From NCBI RefSeq assembly GCF_004010195.1, contig NC_057719.1:56997137-57061136 (forward strand): a stretch of 64,000 nucleotides of DNA. The letters are read 5' to 3'. Made by a program: the position numbers and the translations under genes. Positions within the stretch are counted from its first letter, which is position 1. Each line of letters begins with the position of its first letter. Under the pieces are notes generated by a model that was given only the letters and a program-made list of their open reading frames with translations, was not told the origin of the DNA and did not search any database. The stretch comes from Chiloscyllium plagiosum. Lineage: Eukaryota. This document shows, in pieces, positions 5,139-51,164 of this stretch.

Positions 5139-5282
5139 CTGGAACACAAAATACATCAAGTTAATATATAAAATACCATGCAATCTAAGATATTCCAACC
5201 ATTCTGGTCCACACAAGAACTGAATTTCACAACACAAATTTCCAAAACAATCAACAAAAATAATTAAAGAACTGGATTGACA

Positions 5283-6148
5283 GTTTGTGCGAAGATTTGT
5301 AGCTCGGGTGCTCGTTGTTGTGGTTCTGTTCGCCGAGCTGGAAGTTTTTGTTGCAAATGTTTCGTCCCCTGGCTAGGCGACATCATCAGTGCTGGGTACC
5401 CAATATACCAACCACGACAGCGGACAGCTGAAACTGACAACCAGAAGCGGCAGGGACAGACCACTATAAACACCAGAGGAAACATCAAAGAAGCGCTTCG
5501 CAGGAGGCTCCCAAGCACTGATGATGCCGCCTAGCCAGGGGACGAAACGTTTCCAACAAAAACTTCCAGCTCGGCGAACAGAAACACAACAACGAGCACC
5601 CGAGCTACAAATCTTCACACAAACTTCGTGGCTGTTGGTTTGTGTGCCGTTATGAGTCCTAGGGGTCGCAGTAGTCTGGCTGTCAGTTCCGAGATGCTCG
5701 TGATGTATGGTAGTGTGGCTAGTCCTTTTGGTTGTGGTATGTCCTCGTTCTGTGGTCTTTCTCTTAGGCATCTGTTGATGATGTTGCGCGGGTATCCGTT
5801 TTTGGCGAATATCTTGTATAGGTGTTCCTCTTCTTCTTTTTGCAGTTCTGGTGTACTGCAGTGTGTTGTAGCCCTTTTGAATAGTGTCCTGATGCAGCTT
5901 CGTTTGTGTGTGTTGGGGTGGTTACTTTCATAGTTTAGGACTTGGTCTGTGTGTGTGGCTTTCCTGTATACCCTTGTAGTGAATTCTCTGTTCGGTGTTC
6001 TGGGGCGGCAGGGACAGACCACTATAAGCACCGGAGGAAACATCAAAGAAGCGCTTCGCAGGAGGCTCCCAAGCACTGATGATGTCGCCTAGCCAGGGGA
6101 CGAAACGTTTGCAACAAAAACTTCCAGCTCGGCGAACAGAACCACAAC
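5283..6148. mobile_element. Penelope-like element, rearranged, with three terminal-repeat (pLTR) copies
   Basis: Minus ORF VYRKATHTDQVLNYESNHP...NGYP...LPYI (PLE RT thumb/linker); inverted and direct terminal repeats; 13-bp TSD aactggattgaca (5270-5282, 6149-6161). Confidence 0.9.
6073..6112 (+). ncRNA. Minimal type I hammerhead ribozyme motif in PLE pLTR (family A; further copies at 5518+, 5389-, 23940+, 23364-, degenerate 50909+ and ~50471-)
   Basis: GCA-CTGATGA-T-GTCGCCT AGCC AGGGGAC-GAAAC-GTT-TGC. Confidence 0.75.
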
Positions 6149-7054
6149 AACTGGATTGACATTTTAAGACTTTTACTGGGAAAAAAAAAGACTTTTTGCT
6201 GTTAAGTTGCCTGTAAATTCCTTTGAAATGGGTGTTACAACCTTTTTAGCTGCACATTGTACTTCAAATAGTATTACAAGAACAATGCAAACTTGTTCTC
6301 TATTCTCCAGCAGACTCACTTCCCCCTGTTGTACTGGATCACAATATGTAGTGAAAATTTTCCACTCAACCAAAGTTTTCCCAACCCACTTCCAACAGCA
6401 AGTGTGTGTTCTTAAATCTCCAAAAAAGGTCCTGTCCTGTTGCAAAACTAAAAGTCTGGAGAAACTCAGCAGGTTTGGCAGCATCTATGGAAGGAAGAAG
6501 AATGTTTCAAGTCCAGTGACCCTTCATCAAAACCAAAGCACTGAAAGTTTATCATGGCTTTTCTAGTTAGGACCCTCTGAACTATTAGACTTTACATAAT
6601 TGCTTATTGCAAAACAAGAATATCAGATGGGCCTCCAGGCCCCATCAATGAACTAGACTGGCAGATCAATCTGATGATGAGTCATTGAATTCAAAATATT
6701 GGCTCTATTTTTCTCTCCATTAACACTGTCAGACTTGCTGAGTTTCCCCAATGCTTTGTGTGTCTCAGATCTCCTCCATTTGCAGGTCTTTGTTCTGTTT
6801 TACCGGTCTGTTCTGATCCCTTCCTTCTGTACAGGAAAGAAGTTCTGAAAGTGCCCCACTTCACCAGAACGGTGTTTTTTTTGTTACTCCACACAGCTCT
6901 GCCTTCTTCTCGCTGTGCAACCTCCTTAGCAGGTGTCTTCTTACTAAGAGTTACTGTATACACCCATGAAAGCTTTCACTTGATTTTGATAGGTTTCAGT
7001 TTCACTCCACCCATACCACAGATGGTCTTACAGCTCAAAATATGCCTAAGACCA

Positions 7055-14828: not shown

Positions 14829-15042
14829 AGAGTGTGGTGCTGGAAAAGCACAGCAGGTCAGGCAATATCCGAGGAGGAGAATCAAAATTTCGGGCATAAG
14901 CCCTTCATCAGGAATTCCTGGTAAAGGGCTTATGCCCGAAACATTGATTCTCCTGCTCCTTGGATGCTGCCTGACCTGCTGTGCTTTTCCAGCACCACAC
15001 TCTTCACTCTGATCTCCAGCATCTGCAGTCCTCACTTTCTCC
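14829..15042. mobile_element. Head-to-head pair of family B PLE pLTRs forming a ~175-nt palindrome
   Basis: 14829-14914 is the reverse complement of 14915-15003 around GGAATTCC; same unit as 27606 and 42336. Confidence 0.85.
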
Positions 15043-20551: not shown

Positions 20552-23256
20552 GGACCTTGCCATTAAGTGTATAAGTCCTGCTAAGATTTGCTTTCCCAAA
20601 ATGCAGCATCTCGCATTTATCTGAATTAAACTCCATCTGCCACTTCTCGGCCCACTGGCCCATTTGGTCCAGATCACGTTGTAATCTGAGGTAACCCTCT
20701 TCGCTGTCCACTACACCTCCAATTTTGGTGTCATCTGCAAACTTACTAACTGTACCTCTTATGCTCGCATCCAAATCATTTATGTAAATGACAAAAAGTA
20801 GAGGACCTAGACTTCATGGTAACGGACACTAACAGCATTCTGGAAACGTTAAATTAAGGTCAAACACTGTGGAGGAAATAAACACCTGTATTATCACCAG
20901 GGAAAGAGTACAAGAGAAACTAATGGGCTAAAGTCAAAATATCCCTGGACCTGCTGAGTTGAATCCTAGGATACTAAAGGAAGTAGCTGCGGAGATAGTG
21001 GATGCACTGGTAGCAATATTCTAGAAGGTAAGGATTCTTGGAAACGTCCAAGGCAAAAGCCTTATTCAAGAAAGAAAAGAGACAAAACAAAAGATATATA
21101 GGTCAGTTAGCTTAAGGTGTGTCATTGAGAAAACATGAGAGCATGATATAAAGGATTCAATATTAGACATTTAGAAATGCATAAAGTAATCAGCAGAATC
21201 AGCATGGTTTCATAAAAGGGAAAGCATGTCTGAAAAAGTTATTAGAATTAGTTATGATGAAGTAACAAACAGAATAGTTAAAGAGGAGCTAGAAGGTGTC
21301 AAATATATGGATTTATGTTATATAAAAGGCAGAAGATAAGTACTCCGTATAAGGCTACTTAATGAAATGAGAGCCCGTGATGTTGAATGTAGCATATTAA
21401 CATGGAAAGAAGATAGGTTAACTAATCAAAGGCACAGATTTGGGATAAAGAAAGTATTTTCAGAATAGCAATCTGTAATTAGTGGAGTGCCAAAGAGATG
21501 ACTATTAGAGCTACAATTATTGACAACGTACATTAATTACTTTGATGAAGAAATTGAATGTACTGTCATCAAGTTTGCAGATTATGTGGGAAGGCAAGTG
21601 GTGAAGACTACACAAAGAGTCTGCCGAATGATGTAGACAGGTGTGTGGGCAAAATCTTGGCAGGAAGAATAGAGGAGCAGATTATTTTATTTTATTGAGA
21701 AACATTGCAAAAAGCTACAGCACAGAGAGATTTTGGAGTCCTTGTGCATGTATCACAAAAAGCTGGCATTCAAGTTCAATTGACAATAGGAAAGGCAAAC
21801 ATAATGATAACCTTTATTTGAGGGGAATGAGGGTGGGTTTCTTTCAAAATTTTACAAGGCAATAGCTAGATTACACCTACAATACTGTGAACAATTTTGG
21901 TCCCTTTACCTAAGGAGGTATTGGACACAGTCCAGAGAAGGTACACTAGATTGATCATAGACATGAAGAGATTTTCTTTGAGGAGAGCTCAAGTAGTTTG
22001 GGATTAGAATTTAGAAGGACAAGAGACCACTTTATTGAACCATACCAAATTCTTAAGAGGCTTGACAGGGTAGATATGGAAAAGTTGAGTTTCCCCTTGG
22101 AGTTTCCCCTCTAGAACCAGAATGCAAAATCTCAAGAGTGGGAGCACCAATTTCAGACAGTAAGAGGGAGGAATTCTTTTCAAGGTAGACTGATGTTTAG
22201 ACAATCAAGAGGCACGGGGGGGGAAAACGAAGAAAAACTGAGTTGACGATTATCAATCAGCATGATTCACTGAATGGCAAATGTGACGATGTATCAAATG
22301 ACCGATGCTTGCACCTACATAAGGCTACTGGGGGCTCACTTCCAAAGGGCCAGGATATTAAACACCTATCAAACCCAAGTTGGAACACACTTGAGAATAC
22401 TAAACAGTTCTGGTGTCCTTGTTTATAGCTAAAGAATGTAGGAAGCACTGGAGAAAGTGAAAACAAGATTTGGTGGAACAATACTGGAATTGAGAGATAA
22501 TATTCAGAACTTTGAAGCTTTAAGACTTTGAACAATCTTGTTCTTCTTTCTAGAAAGAGAAAACTTAGACATGACCTGACCAAAATCTAAGATTATGAAA
22601 GGGGCAGTTGTAGAGAATTTTGTAGACCTATTCACTTGCAGGCTCAGAATCCAGAACGTGACAGTATAAACATGACACAATCATTAACAAACTCAATAGT
22701 AAACTCAGGAGAGAAGTCATTACAGGGTATGGTTGGAATATACCTATCACAACAAGCAGTGATGCCAACTAGCATTAATGCATCTAAGGGAATATGAGAT
22801 AATTACAAGGAGGTAACAGATGGAAGATTCTGACAAAATGATAGAATATAACAAATGCAATGTGAAAATCTTTGTTTGGAACATAAAGACTGGCACGGAC
22901 TATGGTCCAAACAATTCAAATCATACTGTCAGTATTATGTAATACTTATATTATATAATACTTCACAATCTGTTAGAACGAGTATAGTTGAAAAAAGTTT
23001 TATTTGAAGATTTTTGTTTGGTACACATCAAGACAAAATTACAAGTATCCAAGAATACCAAATTTCAAAGTAAGTTATGATGTAGCTCTTAAAATGAGAG
23101 CTATATCGACTTCAGCAAAGCACTCGACAAATCTTCCACATGGTATGCCGGTTAGTAAGGTCAGATCGCATGGGATCCAGGGGAGCTAGCTAATCAGACA
23201 CAAAATTGACTTGAAGGAGGAAGGAGAAGGTTATAACAGAGATTTGCATTATTGAA

Positions 23257-24048
23257 TTTTGAGAAGATTTGTAGCTCAGATTGAGGTTTTGGATGTAGGT
23301 TTGCTCACTGAGCTGGAAGGTTCATTTCCAGACATTTCATCACCCTGCTAGGTAACATCTTCAGTGGGCCTCCAGGCAAAGCACTGCTGCTGATTCCTGC
23401 TTTCTATTTATATGTTTGGGTTTCTTTGGATTGGTGAAGTCACTTCTGGTTCCTTTTCTCAGGGATGGTAGATGGGGTCTAGCTCAATGTGTTTGTTGAT
23501 AGAGTTCCGGTCGGAATGTCATGCTTCTAGAAATTCTCGTGTGTGTCTCTGTTTGGCTTGTCCTAGTATGGATGTGTTGTCCCAGTCGAAGTGGTGTCTG
23601 TCCTTATCTGTATGTAAGGATACTAGTGAGAGAGGGTCATGTCGTTTTGTGCCTACTTGATGTGCATGTATCCTGGTGGCTCATTTTCTGGTGGATAAAC
23701 AGGCAGAAAAACACATCCATCCTAGGACAAGCCAGACAGAGACATGCATGAGAATTCCTAGAAGCGTGGCATTCCAACCGGAACTCTATCAACAAACACA
23801 TCGAGTTGGACCCCACCTATCACCTCCTGAGAAAAAGGACAGGAAATGATGTCACCACAGGAAATGACATCAACCCAAAAAAAACCAAACATAGAAATAG
23901 AAAGCAGGAATCAGCAGCAGTGCTTCGCCTGGAGGCCCACTGAAGATGTTACCTAGTAGGGTGATGAAATGTCTGGAAATGAACCTTCCAGCTCAGTGAG
24001 CAAACCTACATCCAAAACCTCAATCTGAGCTACAAATCTTCTCAAAAT
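23257..24048. mobile_element. Penelope-like 3' fragment as inverted (hairpin) pair, inserted in a CR1
   Basis: GIY-YIG C-terminal remnant (HHFDWDNTSILGQAKQRHTREFLEA) on both strands plus pLTRs. Confidence 0.88.
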
Positions 24049-24196
24049 TCAATAATGCAAATCTCTGTTATAACCTTCTCCTTCCTACCTTCAAGTCAAT
24101 TTTGTGTCTGATTAGCTAGCTCCCCTGGATCCCATGCGATCTGACCTTACTAACCGGCATACCATGTGGAAGATTTGTCGAGTGCTTTGCTGAAGT

Positions 24197-24750
24197 GTAT
24201 AGGAGTTGGGTCATGTGGCAATACAGGACAATCGTGAGGCTACTATTAGAATACTGCATATAATTCAAGTCGCCTTTCTATAGGAAGGATGTTGTGAAAC
24301 TTGAGGGATACAGAAAGGACTTACAAGGTTGTTACTATGACTCGAGTTATAGGGAGAGGCTGAGTTAGCTGGGGCTTTTTTCTCTGAAGCGTCAGAGGCT
24401 GAGGGAGTAACTTCATAGAGGTTTATAAAATCATGAGGGGCATGGATAGGGTGAACAGCCAAGGTCTTTTTCCTAAGATGGGTCAGTCCAAAACTAGGGG
24501 GGATAAGTTTAATGTGTGAGGGGAAAGATTTAAAAAGGACCCAAGGAGTAACTTTCTTACACAGAGGGTGCTGAGAGATGAAGTGGTAGAGATGGGTACA
24601 ACATATGAAAGACATTGGGAAGGGCATATGAATAGGAAGTGTTTAGAAGAATATGGGCCAAATGCTGGCAAATAGGACTAGGTCAGAATGGGATGTCCGG
24701 TTGCTGCAGAGGAGCTGGACCGAAGGGTCTGTTTCCACGCTGTATAACTA
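24197..24750 (+). mobile_element. CR1 3' end (5' part at 23100-23250)
   Basis: IEVYKIMRGMDRVN and CR1 3'UTR. Confidence 0.85.
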
Positions 24751-39386: not shown

Positions 39387-39654
39387 AAAGAACTGAGAGT
39401 GGTTGCCCCCATTGTGTTCTTTACCCGTCTGGGTGATTCCAACTGGCTGTCCTGTCTCGTCATTGGGTTTTACCCACAAGCCATCGAAGTGACTCTGCAG
39501 AGGGACAGAGTGTTGATTGATGAGACCTTGTCCACTTGGATCTTATCCAATCACAACGGGACCTACCAGATCTGGAAATGGGTACTGTTTGATCCGAAGG
39601 ATCAGGCCAAGTATTCCTGTCAGGTGGAGTACAGCGGGCTGGAAGTGATTTATG
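39387..39654 (+). pseudogene. Orphan MHC class I alpha3 (Ig C1-set) domain fragment; possible cassette exon 39377-39715
   Basis: KELRVVAPIVFFTRLGDSNWLSCLVIGFYPQAIEVTLQRD...LSNHNGTYQIWKW...KYSCQVEYSGL: C-x3-GFYP, N-x-[DN]-GTYQ and Y-x-C-x-V motifs; Cys pair 55 aa apart; no alpha1/alpha2/TM exons seen. Confidence 0.85.
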
Positions 39655-40069
39655 ATAAGACTGATTCTCATTGTCAGAGAGGAACCACACTCAGACTCGG
39701 ATCAGAGGAGGGAGGGTGAGTGCTGCGCATTTTCACCAGAACAGCCGAGGTTAGAAAAAGGAACAATATATAGAAAGGGGCTCGCACCATTTATAGGAAA
39801 CCATAATCAAGGCAGTTGTTCCTGGGAACTCCAGTACAACATGTATCAGTGTATCCTGGAATATTAGAGTACAGCAGCATTGGATAAATGCTGGGATATA
39901 ACAGAATGACAGGATCTGGTGTTTTGCAGGTAATTGTCACTCACTGTATCCGTGCATACACAGAATTAAGGCACCCAATGTAACCTGAAAACGCATTTCA
40001 TCCCAGTACCTGGCATATTCCAGGAATATTATAGTATTAAAGTATATGGTACATTGTACGTCTGCTATT

Positions 40070-50244: not shown

Positions 50245-50363
50245 GTATGCAAGCTACTCAGTTCACATGAAGAGTATATAATGTTCTGCAGATTAGCACT
50301 TTACAATGCTTAAGGACAATAAAAACTCTAACATTCTTTAAAATAAACACAAGAAATCTCCAA

Positions 50364-50984
50364 GTTTTGTGAAGATTTGTAGCTCAGGTTGAGATTCTGG
50401 TTGTAGATTTGCTCGCTGAGCTGGAAGGTTCATGTTCAGATGTTTCATCACCATACTAGTAACATCTTCGGTGAGTCTCCAGATGAAGCATTGCTGATGA
50501 TTCTGCTTTCTATTTATATGTTTGGGTTTCTTTGGGTCGGTGATGTCATTTCCTGTGCTCTTTCTCAGGGGGTAGTAGATGGTGTCTAACCTCATGTGTT
50601 TGTTAATCGAGTTCCGATTGGAATGCCATGCTTCTAGGAATTCTCGTGCGTGTCTCTGTTTGACTTGTCCTTGGATGGATGTGTTGTCCCAGTCAAAGTG
50701 GTCTCCTTCCTCATCTGTATGTAAGGATATTAGTGAGGGAGGGTCATGACGACATGACCAATCGGAACTTTATCAATAAACACATTGACTTGGACCTGAT
50801 TTACCACCCCCTGAGAAAAAGAACAGGACATGACATCACCAACCCAAAAAAACCCAAATATATAATAAGAAAGCAGGAATCATTAGCGATGCTTCGTCTG
50901 GAGACTCACTAAAGATGTTCCTAGTATGGTGATGAAACATCTGGACATGAACCTTCCAGCTCAGCGAGCAAACCTACATCCAGA
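50364..50984. mobile_element. Penelope-like 3' fragment, inverted hairpin pair
   Basis: Same family as 23257-24048; candidate TSD acaagaaatc (50349-50358, 50985-50994). Confidence 0.85.
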
Positions 50985-51164
50985 ACAAGAAATCAAATTG
51001 TTGCATCAGTTATAGAACTATGTTTTTGCTTCATTTGTCAACCAACAAATGTGTATAAAGTTACTATGAAACTACTAGTGGTTGATACAAAAATGATTGA
51101 ATATTTCCATGTTTAAAAACACTGCTTAAATATCTAGATTAATAACTTATTATCTATTTTGTAG

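What the first reader, a model, noticed from the sequence alone, without database searches (positions are those of the whole stretch)
5341..6112. Hammerhead ribozyme motifs in Penelope pLTRs (family A) with compensatory stem I changes across subfamilies
Seen: core CTGANGA...GAAA with stem II and an NUH triplet. Stem I covaries between copies: GCA/TGC (6073/6110), CCA/TGG (23937/23974), TCA/TGA (minus copy ~50436-50474). Stem II also varies while pairing (GTC.CCT/AGG.GAC vs GTTACC/GGTGAT). One extra nucleotide follows A9. Stem III has no loop (palindromic AACGTT), so a monomer cannot fold. Known: PLEs carry minimal type I hammerheads that cleave as dimers. Inference: structure was selected during these elements' history; I do not know whether these shark variants are catalogued.
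Basis: partly seen in the sequence, partly recalled or inferred. Interest (0 to 1): 0.7.

Follow-up and report, generated by a model that had tools for sequence, protein, structure and literature searches.

The report
Shark Penelope hammerhead, covarying stem confirmed
This is a real but already-known kind of tiny, likely self-cutting RNA motif at the ends of a very abundant shark-type Penelope jumping gene; one stem pair is swapped on both sides between subfamilies, which likely reflects selection on the RNA's shape, and the motif also holds the element's stop codon and likely start codon.

Summary
Observation largely confirmed; interpretation mostly supported, but a known kind. Window 5282-6151 is a truncated, partly inverted copy of a young Penelope/Poseidon-type retroelement with three minimal type I hammerhead copies; only 6073-6112 is intact (1 of 7 family copies in the window). 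Two genome patterns give 13,773 and 15,164 exact matches, 0 in controls. In 260 sampled copies the third stem I pair is G-C 138, U-A 61, C-G 41, wobble 9, unpaired 11; a flank-only tree puts these in separate lineages, so about 2-3 independent double changes. In stem II one pair covaries (C-G, U-G, U-A) and one is broken in the youngest subfamily. The 'extra' U is the middle letter of the likely start codon, and the frame's stop also lies inside the motif. A nearly identical hammerhead from a Clonorchis Cercyon element is already catalogued (PMC4209133, Fig. S3). No sign of cutting in genomic ends or RNA reads; cleavage untested. The scan found the same layout before on other DNA of this genome.

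The parts
5270..5282 (+). Left target-site duplication (10-13 nt; same letters at 6149-6161)
   Evidence: Read directly
5284..5396 (-). Inverted pseudo-LTR piece with tail (element positions -12 to +100 relative to A9); holds hammerhead copy 5353-5392 with CpG-decayed helix III (CATT)
   Evidence: 97.3% to natural full-length copy L160
5398..5626 (+). ORF C-terminus plus pseudo-LTR with tail (to +103); holds hammerhead copy 5515-5554 with a stem II change (10.2) and a broken middle stem I pair (TCC); predicted to be sequestered by the inverted arm
5627..6001 (-). Inverted internal fragment of the element's ORF (RT C-terminal part and linker)
   Evidence: 96.8% to L160 1717-2091; translation; no Pfam hit on its own
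6005..6151 (+). 3' pseudo-LTR without tail (element positions -76 to +70)
   Evidence: 97.9% to L160
6073..6112 (+). Intact minimal type I hammerhead: 3-bp stem I GCA/TGC, core, extra U, stem II with one G-G mismatch, GAAA, loop-less helix III, GUU triplet; predicted cut between 6109 and 6110
   Evidence: numbering as in PMC4209133
6082..6084 (+). A9-U-G10.1 = ATG, likely start codon of the element's ORF
   Evidence: Open for 245 codons in L160; residue 1 aligns with residue 1 of a fluke PLE protein, 46% over 228 aa
6090..6092 (+). TAG stop of the incoming ORF (...PSTDDVA*), at the tip of stem II
   Evidence: 85 of 89 scored copies of the young subfamilies reach it in frame
6149..6161 (+). Right target-site duplication
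   Evidence: Read directly
23255..24049 (.). Older-subfamily copy as an inverted pair; hammerheads 23937-23976 (+) and 23328-23367 (-), both CCA/TGG with decayed helix III (TGTC)
50362..50986 (.). Older-subfamily copy as an inverted pair; decayed hammerheads 50436-50474 (-, TCA/TGA) and 50906-50944 (+, TCA/TGG)

Best explanation
The motif is the minimal type I hammerhead carried in the pseudo-LTR of a high-copy Penelope-type retroelement, and its fold was likely kept by selection in the active master elements, where two copies on a tandem transcript would pair through ACGU to make helix III and cut, probably slowly and with help from the element's protein. Shown: the sequence, its place in the element, tens of thousands of copies, paired changes between subfamilies, the stop codon inside the motif. 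Inferred: selection on structure (2-3 independent double changes at stem I pair 3; C-G/U-G/U-A at stem II pair 3), the start codon at A9-U-G10.1, dimer cleavage. The window copies are dead-on-arrival insertion debris decaying neutrally; the element is copied mostly from uncut (or rejoined) RNA, so cutting is probably a side branch or late step, not the maker of the copy's ends.
For: Element identity: RVT_1 hits; closest proteins are carpet-shark and flatworm elements with RT, one with GIY-YIG above Pfam's cut-off, aligned to this family's endonuclease region; natural copies L160 and L173 with a motif at each end. Abundance: 13,773 and 15,164 exact matches, controls 0 (the two sets overlap). 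Covariation: 249 of 260 copies canonical at stem I pair 3 in three Watson-Crick states; 249 of 250 canonical at stem II pair 3; slid partners 18% and 24% against 92%; states fall in separate lineages on a tree built without the motif's letters (G-C clade 100/100, C-G clade 100/100, second C-G group 91/98). Both partners of stem I pair 3 are amino-acid-changing positions in the two overlapping frames, so protein constraint does not predict matched changes. Published match: PMC4209133 consensus and Fig. S3 Clonorchis rows; protein-assisted cleavage and start codon at stem II in Anolis PAc (PMC11167929).
Against: No cleavage was measured. RNA reads cross the predicted cut with no pile-up of ends and no drop in depth (782 reads, 2% of one poly(A) single-cell run), though that library is poorly suited to catch cut ends. 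9,736 of 9,995 genomic copies keep the two bases upstream of the cut and 0 of 105 scored 3' ends fall at it. Stem I is only 3 bp; stem II pair 4 is broken in the youngest subfamily (136 of 250 purine mismatches). The 44-nt monomer's lowest-energy fold pairs the core (-12.6 against -10.2 kcal/mol), the ACGU self-duplex is only -1.7, and in longer contexts stem I probability ranges from 0.87 to under 0.1. Neighbouring copies are mostly inverted (57 against 10 direct), which would sequester rather than dimerise them. Tree bootstraps had not converged.
Confidence: 0.8

Rival explanations
1. The fold is selected, but not for cutting: in these elements the hammerhead-shaped hairpin serves as a protein-binding or translation-start structure and catalysis is vestigial.
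For: No cut ends in genomic copies or RNA reads; in Anolis PAc, catalytic mutants did not affect insertion in vitro and no RNA-seq ends were found at the site (PMC11167929); Naiad elements thrive without canonical hammerheads (PMC8557442 passages).
Against: Core letters at positions free to vary in both protein frames stay fixed across subfamilies (U4, G12, U16.1 and the CpG palindrome in the young subfamilies); position 17 is never G as a subfamily state; PAc's motif does cut and shows C3/G8 rescue.
Confidence: 0.12
2. The covariation is a by-product of subfamily history: any two diagnostic sites travel together, and conservation comes from the overlapping start, stop and protein termini.
For: Only 2-3 independent events; the motif does overlap both ends of the ORF; sequence downstream of the motif is also well conserved between subfamilies; one stem II pair is broken without apparent cost in the most recent subfamily.
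Against: Linkage explains joint change but not complementarity: all three states are Watson-Crick, including a double transversion, and the second C-G group arose on a branch of only about 0.03 changes per site; the neighbouring unpaired position I.4 changes freely with 7% pairing; the same architecture recurs in 56 motifs of 40 animals (PMC4209133 Fig. S3).
Confidence: 0.05
3. These particular window copies act as working ribozymes in a host transcript.
For: 6073-6112 is intact and a second same-strand copy lies 558 nt upstream.
Against: The partner at 5515 has two damaging changes and is predicted to be fully paired with the inverted arm; no reads on the unique flank 6158-6421 in the 2% of the run read.
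Confidence: 0.03

Closest known systems
Clonorchis sinensis Cercyon-type PLE minimal hammerheads (Cervera and De la Pena 2014, PMC4209133, Fig. S3 rows Clonorchis 1 and 2, Table S1; read main text parts 1-2 of 4 and supplement file 2 parts 1-2 of 3)
   Same: Stem I GCA/UGC, core CUGAUGA, extra U, 6-bp stem II beginning GUC and ending GAC/GAU, 6-nt loop, GAAAC-GUU with no loop III: nearly the same letters as the focal motif. The element's protein is also closest, outside sharks, to flatworm elements (about 39-53% among the named flatworm hits).
   Different: Host; a purine mismatch at stem II pair 4 in the young shark subfamily; far higher copy number. No cartilaginous fish is among the rows of Fig. 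S3 or Table S1 that I read.
Minimal type I hammerheads (min-HHR) of metazoan PLE pseudo-LTRs in general (same paper; dimer cleavage also Lunse et al. 2016, seen only as a title in reference lists and as summarised in PMC6765202 passages)
   Same: All four hallmarks the paper lists: consensus families with compensatory changes, a nucleotide between 9 and 10.1, G10.1-C11.1, palindromic 15.2-16.2; also solo, truncated and opposite-strand pairs 100-700 bp apart.
   Different: Stem I of 3 bp is at the short end; one subfamily has fixed G-U at 10.1-11.1 (25 of 26).
Poseidon element PAc of Anolis carolinensis (Frangieh et al. 2024, PMC11167929; read parts 1-2 of 4; GenBank supplement unreadable)
   Same: [quoted passage not shown]
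   Different: Here the incoming ORF also stops inside the motif, so the 2.5-kb unit has no untranslated part; the paper's text does not say this of PAc and I could not check its sequence. The tail ends lie nearer the start codon (70 and about 105 nt against 111-118).

Membership tests
Minimal type I hammerhead of PLEs | Core CUGANGA ... GAAA ... NUH | tested here: met
   6076-6109
Minimal type I hammerhead of PLEs | Helix I closing the motif (type I topology), supported by covariation | tested here: met
   3 bp; 97/94/92% Watson-Crick in 260 copies, third pair in three states
Minimal type I hammerhead of PLEs | Helix II with G10.1-C11.1 and one nucleotide between 9 and 10.1 | tested here: met
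   G-C modal in 6 of 8 groups, tied in 1, G-U in 1; extra U in 257 of 260
Minimal type I hammerhead of PLEs | No loop III; palindromic 15.2-16.2 | tested here: met
   CG modal or CpG-decayed in all 8 groups
Minimal type I hammerhead of PLEs | Located in the pseudo-LTRs of a PLE, sense to the ORF | tested here: met
   L160 and L173 carry it at both ends of the ORF on the coding strand
Minimal type I hammerhead of PLEs | Self-cleavage as a dimer | not testable with these tools
   Indirect looks found no cut ends; energy models do not decide it
Canonical hammerhead families in Rfam | Match to a hammerhead covariance model; monomer-stable helix III | tested here: not met
   No hammerhead family among 6 matches at E<=10; helix III has no loop
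EN+ Penelope-like element, Penelope/Poseidon clade | Single ORF with RT and DKG motif | tested here: met
   RVT_1 E=1.5e-9 and 8.3e-7; PADKGR in L173; frame closes from ATG to TAG once indels private to L160 are counted
EN+ Penelope-like element, Penelope/Poseidon clade | C-terminal GIY-YIG endonuclease with CCHH | tested here: met
   No direct Pfam, NCBIfam or PDB hit, but the region aligns with homologues that do hit GIY-YIG; VVYKIPCxxC..YIGQTGR and two His seen
EN+ Penelope-like element, Penelope/Poseidon clade | No zinc-finger-like linker between RT and EN (present in Neptune and Nematis) | tested here: met
   Linker of L173 and L172 has no Cys cluster; criterion from PMC8557442 passages. 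No RT tree against named clades was built.
EN+ Penelope-like element, Penelope/Poseidon clade | Pseudo-LTRs, inverted 5'-truncated segment, optional 30-40 bp tail | tested here: met
   Segment map and bimodal 3' ends; 57 inverted against 10 direct neighbours
Non-LTR retrozyme | Non-coding head-to-tail tandem repeats with a hammerhead in every unit | tested here: not met
   The pieces are fragments of a coding element, mostly inverted; definition from bioRxiv 10.64898/2026.07.22.740005 part 1

The most novel reading that the evidence does not exclude
The hammerhead is a translation gate on an all-coding retroelement. The unit (about 2,503 nt) has no untranslated part: the ORF starts at A9-U-G10.1 and ends 8 nt further on in the next motif. 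Cutting at two successive motifs would release a linear RNA that lacks its AUG, and closing it into a circle would give the AUG back, so that a ribosome reads one full turn plus 11 nt and stops in stem II; in older subfamilies the stop is instead the UGA of the catalytic core, just ahead of the AUG, as in stop-restart signals. The circle would be both the message and the template.
Probability: 0.06. Interest if true: 0.7.

Novelty: new member of a known kind. Interest (0 to 1): 0.2.

Why it matters
What Penelope hammerheads do in vivo is still open (PMC8557442 and PMC11167929 say so). This family adds a clean natural series for bench work: three stem I states and three stem II states in subfamilies of different age, a young subfamily with thousands of near-identical copies, and a layout in which start codon, stop codon and cut site lie within 30 nt. 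It does not add a new ribozyme class or architecture, and the covariation confirms a published point. The closeness of both protein and ribozyme to flatworm elements is a lead for horizontal transfer, not tested here.

Tried and rejected
Rfam scan: no hammerhead model matches. Idea that the TCA/TGA state is a private mutation of a decayed copy (its twin arm reads TCA/TGG): rejected, 61 of 260 sampled copies are U-A. A genome-wide count spanning both arms of stem I was not obtained; the pair tables rest on 260 copies, of 313 profile hits (52 dropped as unparsable or duplicate, 1 for short flanks), and most were picked by searches that favour an intact 5' half; only 21 come from the evenly placed stretches (G-C 11, U-A 4, C-G 3, U-G 2, G-A 1; 7 intact). 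My subfamily labels were hand-made flank markers and one group (S2a) is mixed. A conserved outer extension of stem I: seen in some single folds, not recovered by the consensus fold of 61 copies; not claimed. Copies beginning or ending at the cut: not found. Reads joining the end of the reference to its start are ordinary 3' pseudo-LTR reads, not evidence of circles. The roughly 6:1 strand bias of reads may come from oligo-dT priming on the A-rich sense strand; not used as evidence of element-driven transcription. No run holding the stretch is on record as RNA (no RNA holder listed); run X17 gave no reads. Direct GIY-YIG detection by Pfam, NCBIfam and PDB sequence search failed; the Atlas gave no answer. 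Lunse et al. 2016 could not be read and may list these variants; supplements of the 2026 bioRxiv paper, which scanned one cartilaginous fish, file 1 of PMC4209133 and the PAc GenBank file were not seen. Paper searches showed no paper on shark PLE hammerheads or on a stop codon inside the motif; one search gave nothing usable on GUU rates.

Full report
Observation. The three motifs are at the stated coordinates. The focal one, 6073-6112 on +, has a 3-bp stem I (GCA/TGC), the core CTGATGA, one extra T, a stem II with a G-G mismatch, GAAA, then CGTT with no loop III; the predicted cut is between 6109 and 6110. The core pattern is enriched in the window (18 against 5.98, 0 of 100 shuffles) and in 80 evenly placed 10-kb stretches of the genome (113 against 10 reversed; 64 against 0 when stems are required). 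Two exact patterns for this family match 13,773 and 15,164 places, 0 in the reversed controls (overlapping sets). Rfam has no model that catches it. Of the seven family copies in the window only the focal one is intact; the others carry CpG decay in helix III, core changes or stem changes.

What it sits in. Window 5282-6151 is one insertion between 10-13-nt target-site duplications. Mapped on a natural full-length copy (L160), it is four pieces: an inverted pseudo-LTR with tail, a sense ORF end plus pseudo-LTR with tail, an inverted ORF fragment, and a sense pseudo-LTR without tail, all 96-98% identical to L160. The family has one RT plus GIY-YIG-type ORF: RVT_1 hits, DKG and CxxC..YIG..H..H motifs, alignment to homologues that hit Pfam GIY-YIG, and no Cys linker, which by the criterion in PMC8557442 (passages) places it with Penelope/Poseidon. 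Its 3' ends are bimodal, +65-70 in 56 and +100-110 in 34 of 105 copies, which is the published tail (PMC11167929). The best named relatives are carpet-shark proteins (82-89% for the top ones) and then flatworm elements.

Covariation. From 313 profile hits, 260 distinct copies could be scored; most were chosen by searches that favour an intact 5' half, 21 come from evenly placed stretches. Stem I pair 3 is G-C in 138, U-A in 61, C-G in 41, wobble in 9 and unpaired in 11. Pairs 1 and 2 do not vary. Slid partners give 18% and 24% Watson-Crick against 92%, and the next position out gives 7%. A tree of 76 copies built without the motif's letters separates a G-C clade (100/100), a C-G clade (100/100), a second C-G group (91/98) and U-A copies elsewhere; bootstraps had not converged. 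That is two or three independent double changes, one of them a double transversion. In stem II, pair 3 is C-G 139, U-G 70, U-A 40 (249 of 250 canonical), a full path through the wobble; pair 4 is A-U in older subfamilies but a purine mismatch in the youngest (136 of 250), which counts against tight selection on that helix.

Overlap with the reading frame. A9, the extra U and G10.1 spell ATG. In L160 it opens 245 codons, its first residue aligns with the first residue of a fluke PLE protein (46% over 228 aa), and a conserved downstream peptide is in frame with it in 101 of 117 scored copies. The incoming ORF ends at the TAG 8 nt after that A in the young subfamilies (85 of 89) and, in part of the older ones, at the TGA of the core (14 of 27 in a mixed group). 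L160 and L173 have 2,502 nt between motifs; the majority of other copies differ from L160 by a net +1, which closes one frame of about 837 codons from ATG to TAG. The unit therefore has no untranslated part. A start at stem II is published for Anolis PAc; I found no text on a stop inside the motif, but earlier notes of this scan report the same layout in this genome, a reading I had written down before the look-up.

How it most likely works. As published for minimal hammerheads (PMC4209133), two motifs on a tandem transcript would pair A15.1-C15.2-G16.2-U16.1 with each other to make helix III and cut after position 17, slowly and probably with protein help as shown for PAc. This step is inferred. 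Energy models are lukewarm: the 44-nt monomer forms stems I and II (0.95, 0.99) but prefers a fold that pairs the core (-12.6 against -10.2 kcal/mol), the ACGU duplex is -1.7, and stem I probability is 0.87 in a 102-nt context but under 0.1 in longer ones. Cutting does not define the copies: 9,736 of 9,995 copies keep the two bases upstream of the site, none of 105 3' ends falls there, and 782 RNA reads from 2% of one poly(A) single-cell run cross it without a pile-up, the same negative as in Anolis. At this locus the same-strand partner is damaged and predicted to be locked in the inverted arm, and no reads lie on the unique flank: these are fossils.

Comparison and novelty. All four hallmarks that Cervera and De la Pena list are met, including compensatory changes between families. 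Lunse et al. 2016 could not be read, and unseen supplements may list shark motifs. It works like, and is a member of, the PLE minimal hammerheads; it is not a retrozyme and not a canonical monomeric hammerhead.

Verdict. Real, family-wide and well supported, but a new member of a known kind: interest 0.2. The boldest reading left open is a translation gate in which cutting removes the AUG and circularisation restores it on an all-coding 2.5-kb circle (probability 0.06, interest 0.7 if true); nothing here shows circles or cut ends.

Noticed in passing
P0004-P0120; PMC4209133 Fig. S3: Outside carpet sharks, the named best protein relatives are tapeworm and fluke elements (about 39-53% identity), with no bony fish, amphibian or reptile named among the 120 listed, and the ribozyme is nearly letter-identical to the Clonorchis one. 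A lead for host-parasite horizontal transfer; the database holds annotated proteins only and no tree was built.
   Followed up: partly
window 14888-14911 (-), about 14915 (+), 27102, 27606, 42336 (+): A second, commoner hammerhead family (4-bp stem II, 2-bp stem I) of another Penelope-like element; it is the largest group among the 113 core matches in the evenly placed stretches, where several further families also appear.
   Followed up: no
window 23104-24201: The inverted arms of an old-subfamily copy are 97-98% identical and run about 150 nt past the element's tail into flanking DNA (I2 and I15), much closer to each other than to other copies; suggests gene conversion or a later inverted duplication.
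   Followed up: no
window about 39390-39680 (+): An isolated immunoglobulin C1-set exon-like piece (PF07654, E=5e-12), by eye like an MHC class I alpha-3 exon; the rest of the gene was not sought.
   Followed up: partly
L045, L094, L250-L252 (subfamily S5): A subfamily with one extra base in loop II, which puts the A9-U-G ATG out of frame; a second ATG in the loop region is in frame with the conserved N-terminus (read; few copies).
   Followed up: partly
L203, L211, L223, L224, L230, L240; window 23940 copy: In part of the older subfamilies the ORF ends at the UGA formed by U4-G5-A6 of the catalytic core instead of the loop II UAG (14 of 27 scored copies of the mixed group S2a): the stop has moved but stays inside the motif.
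   Followed up: yes
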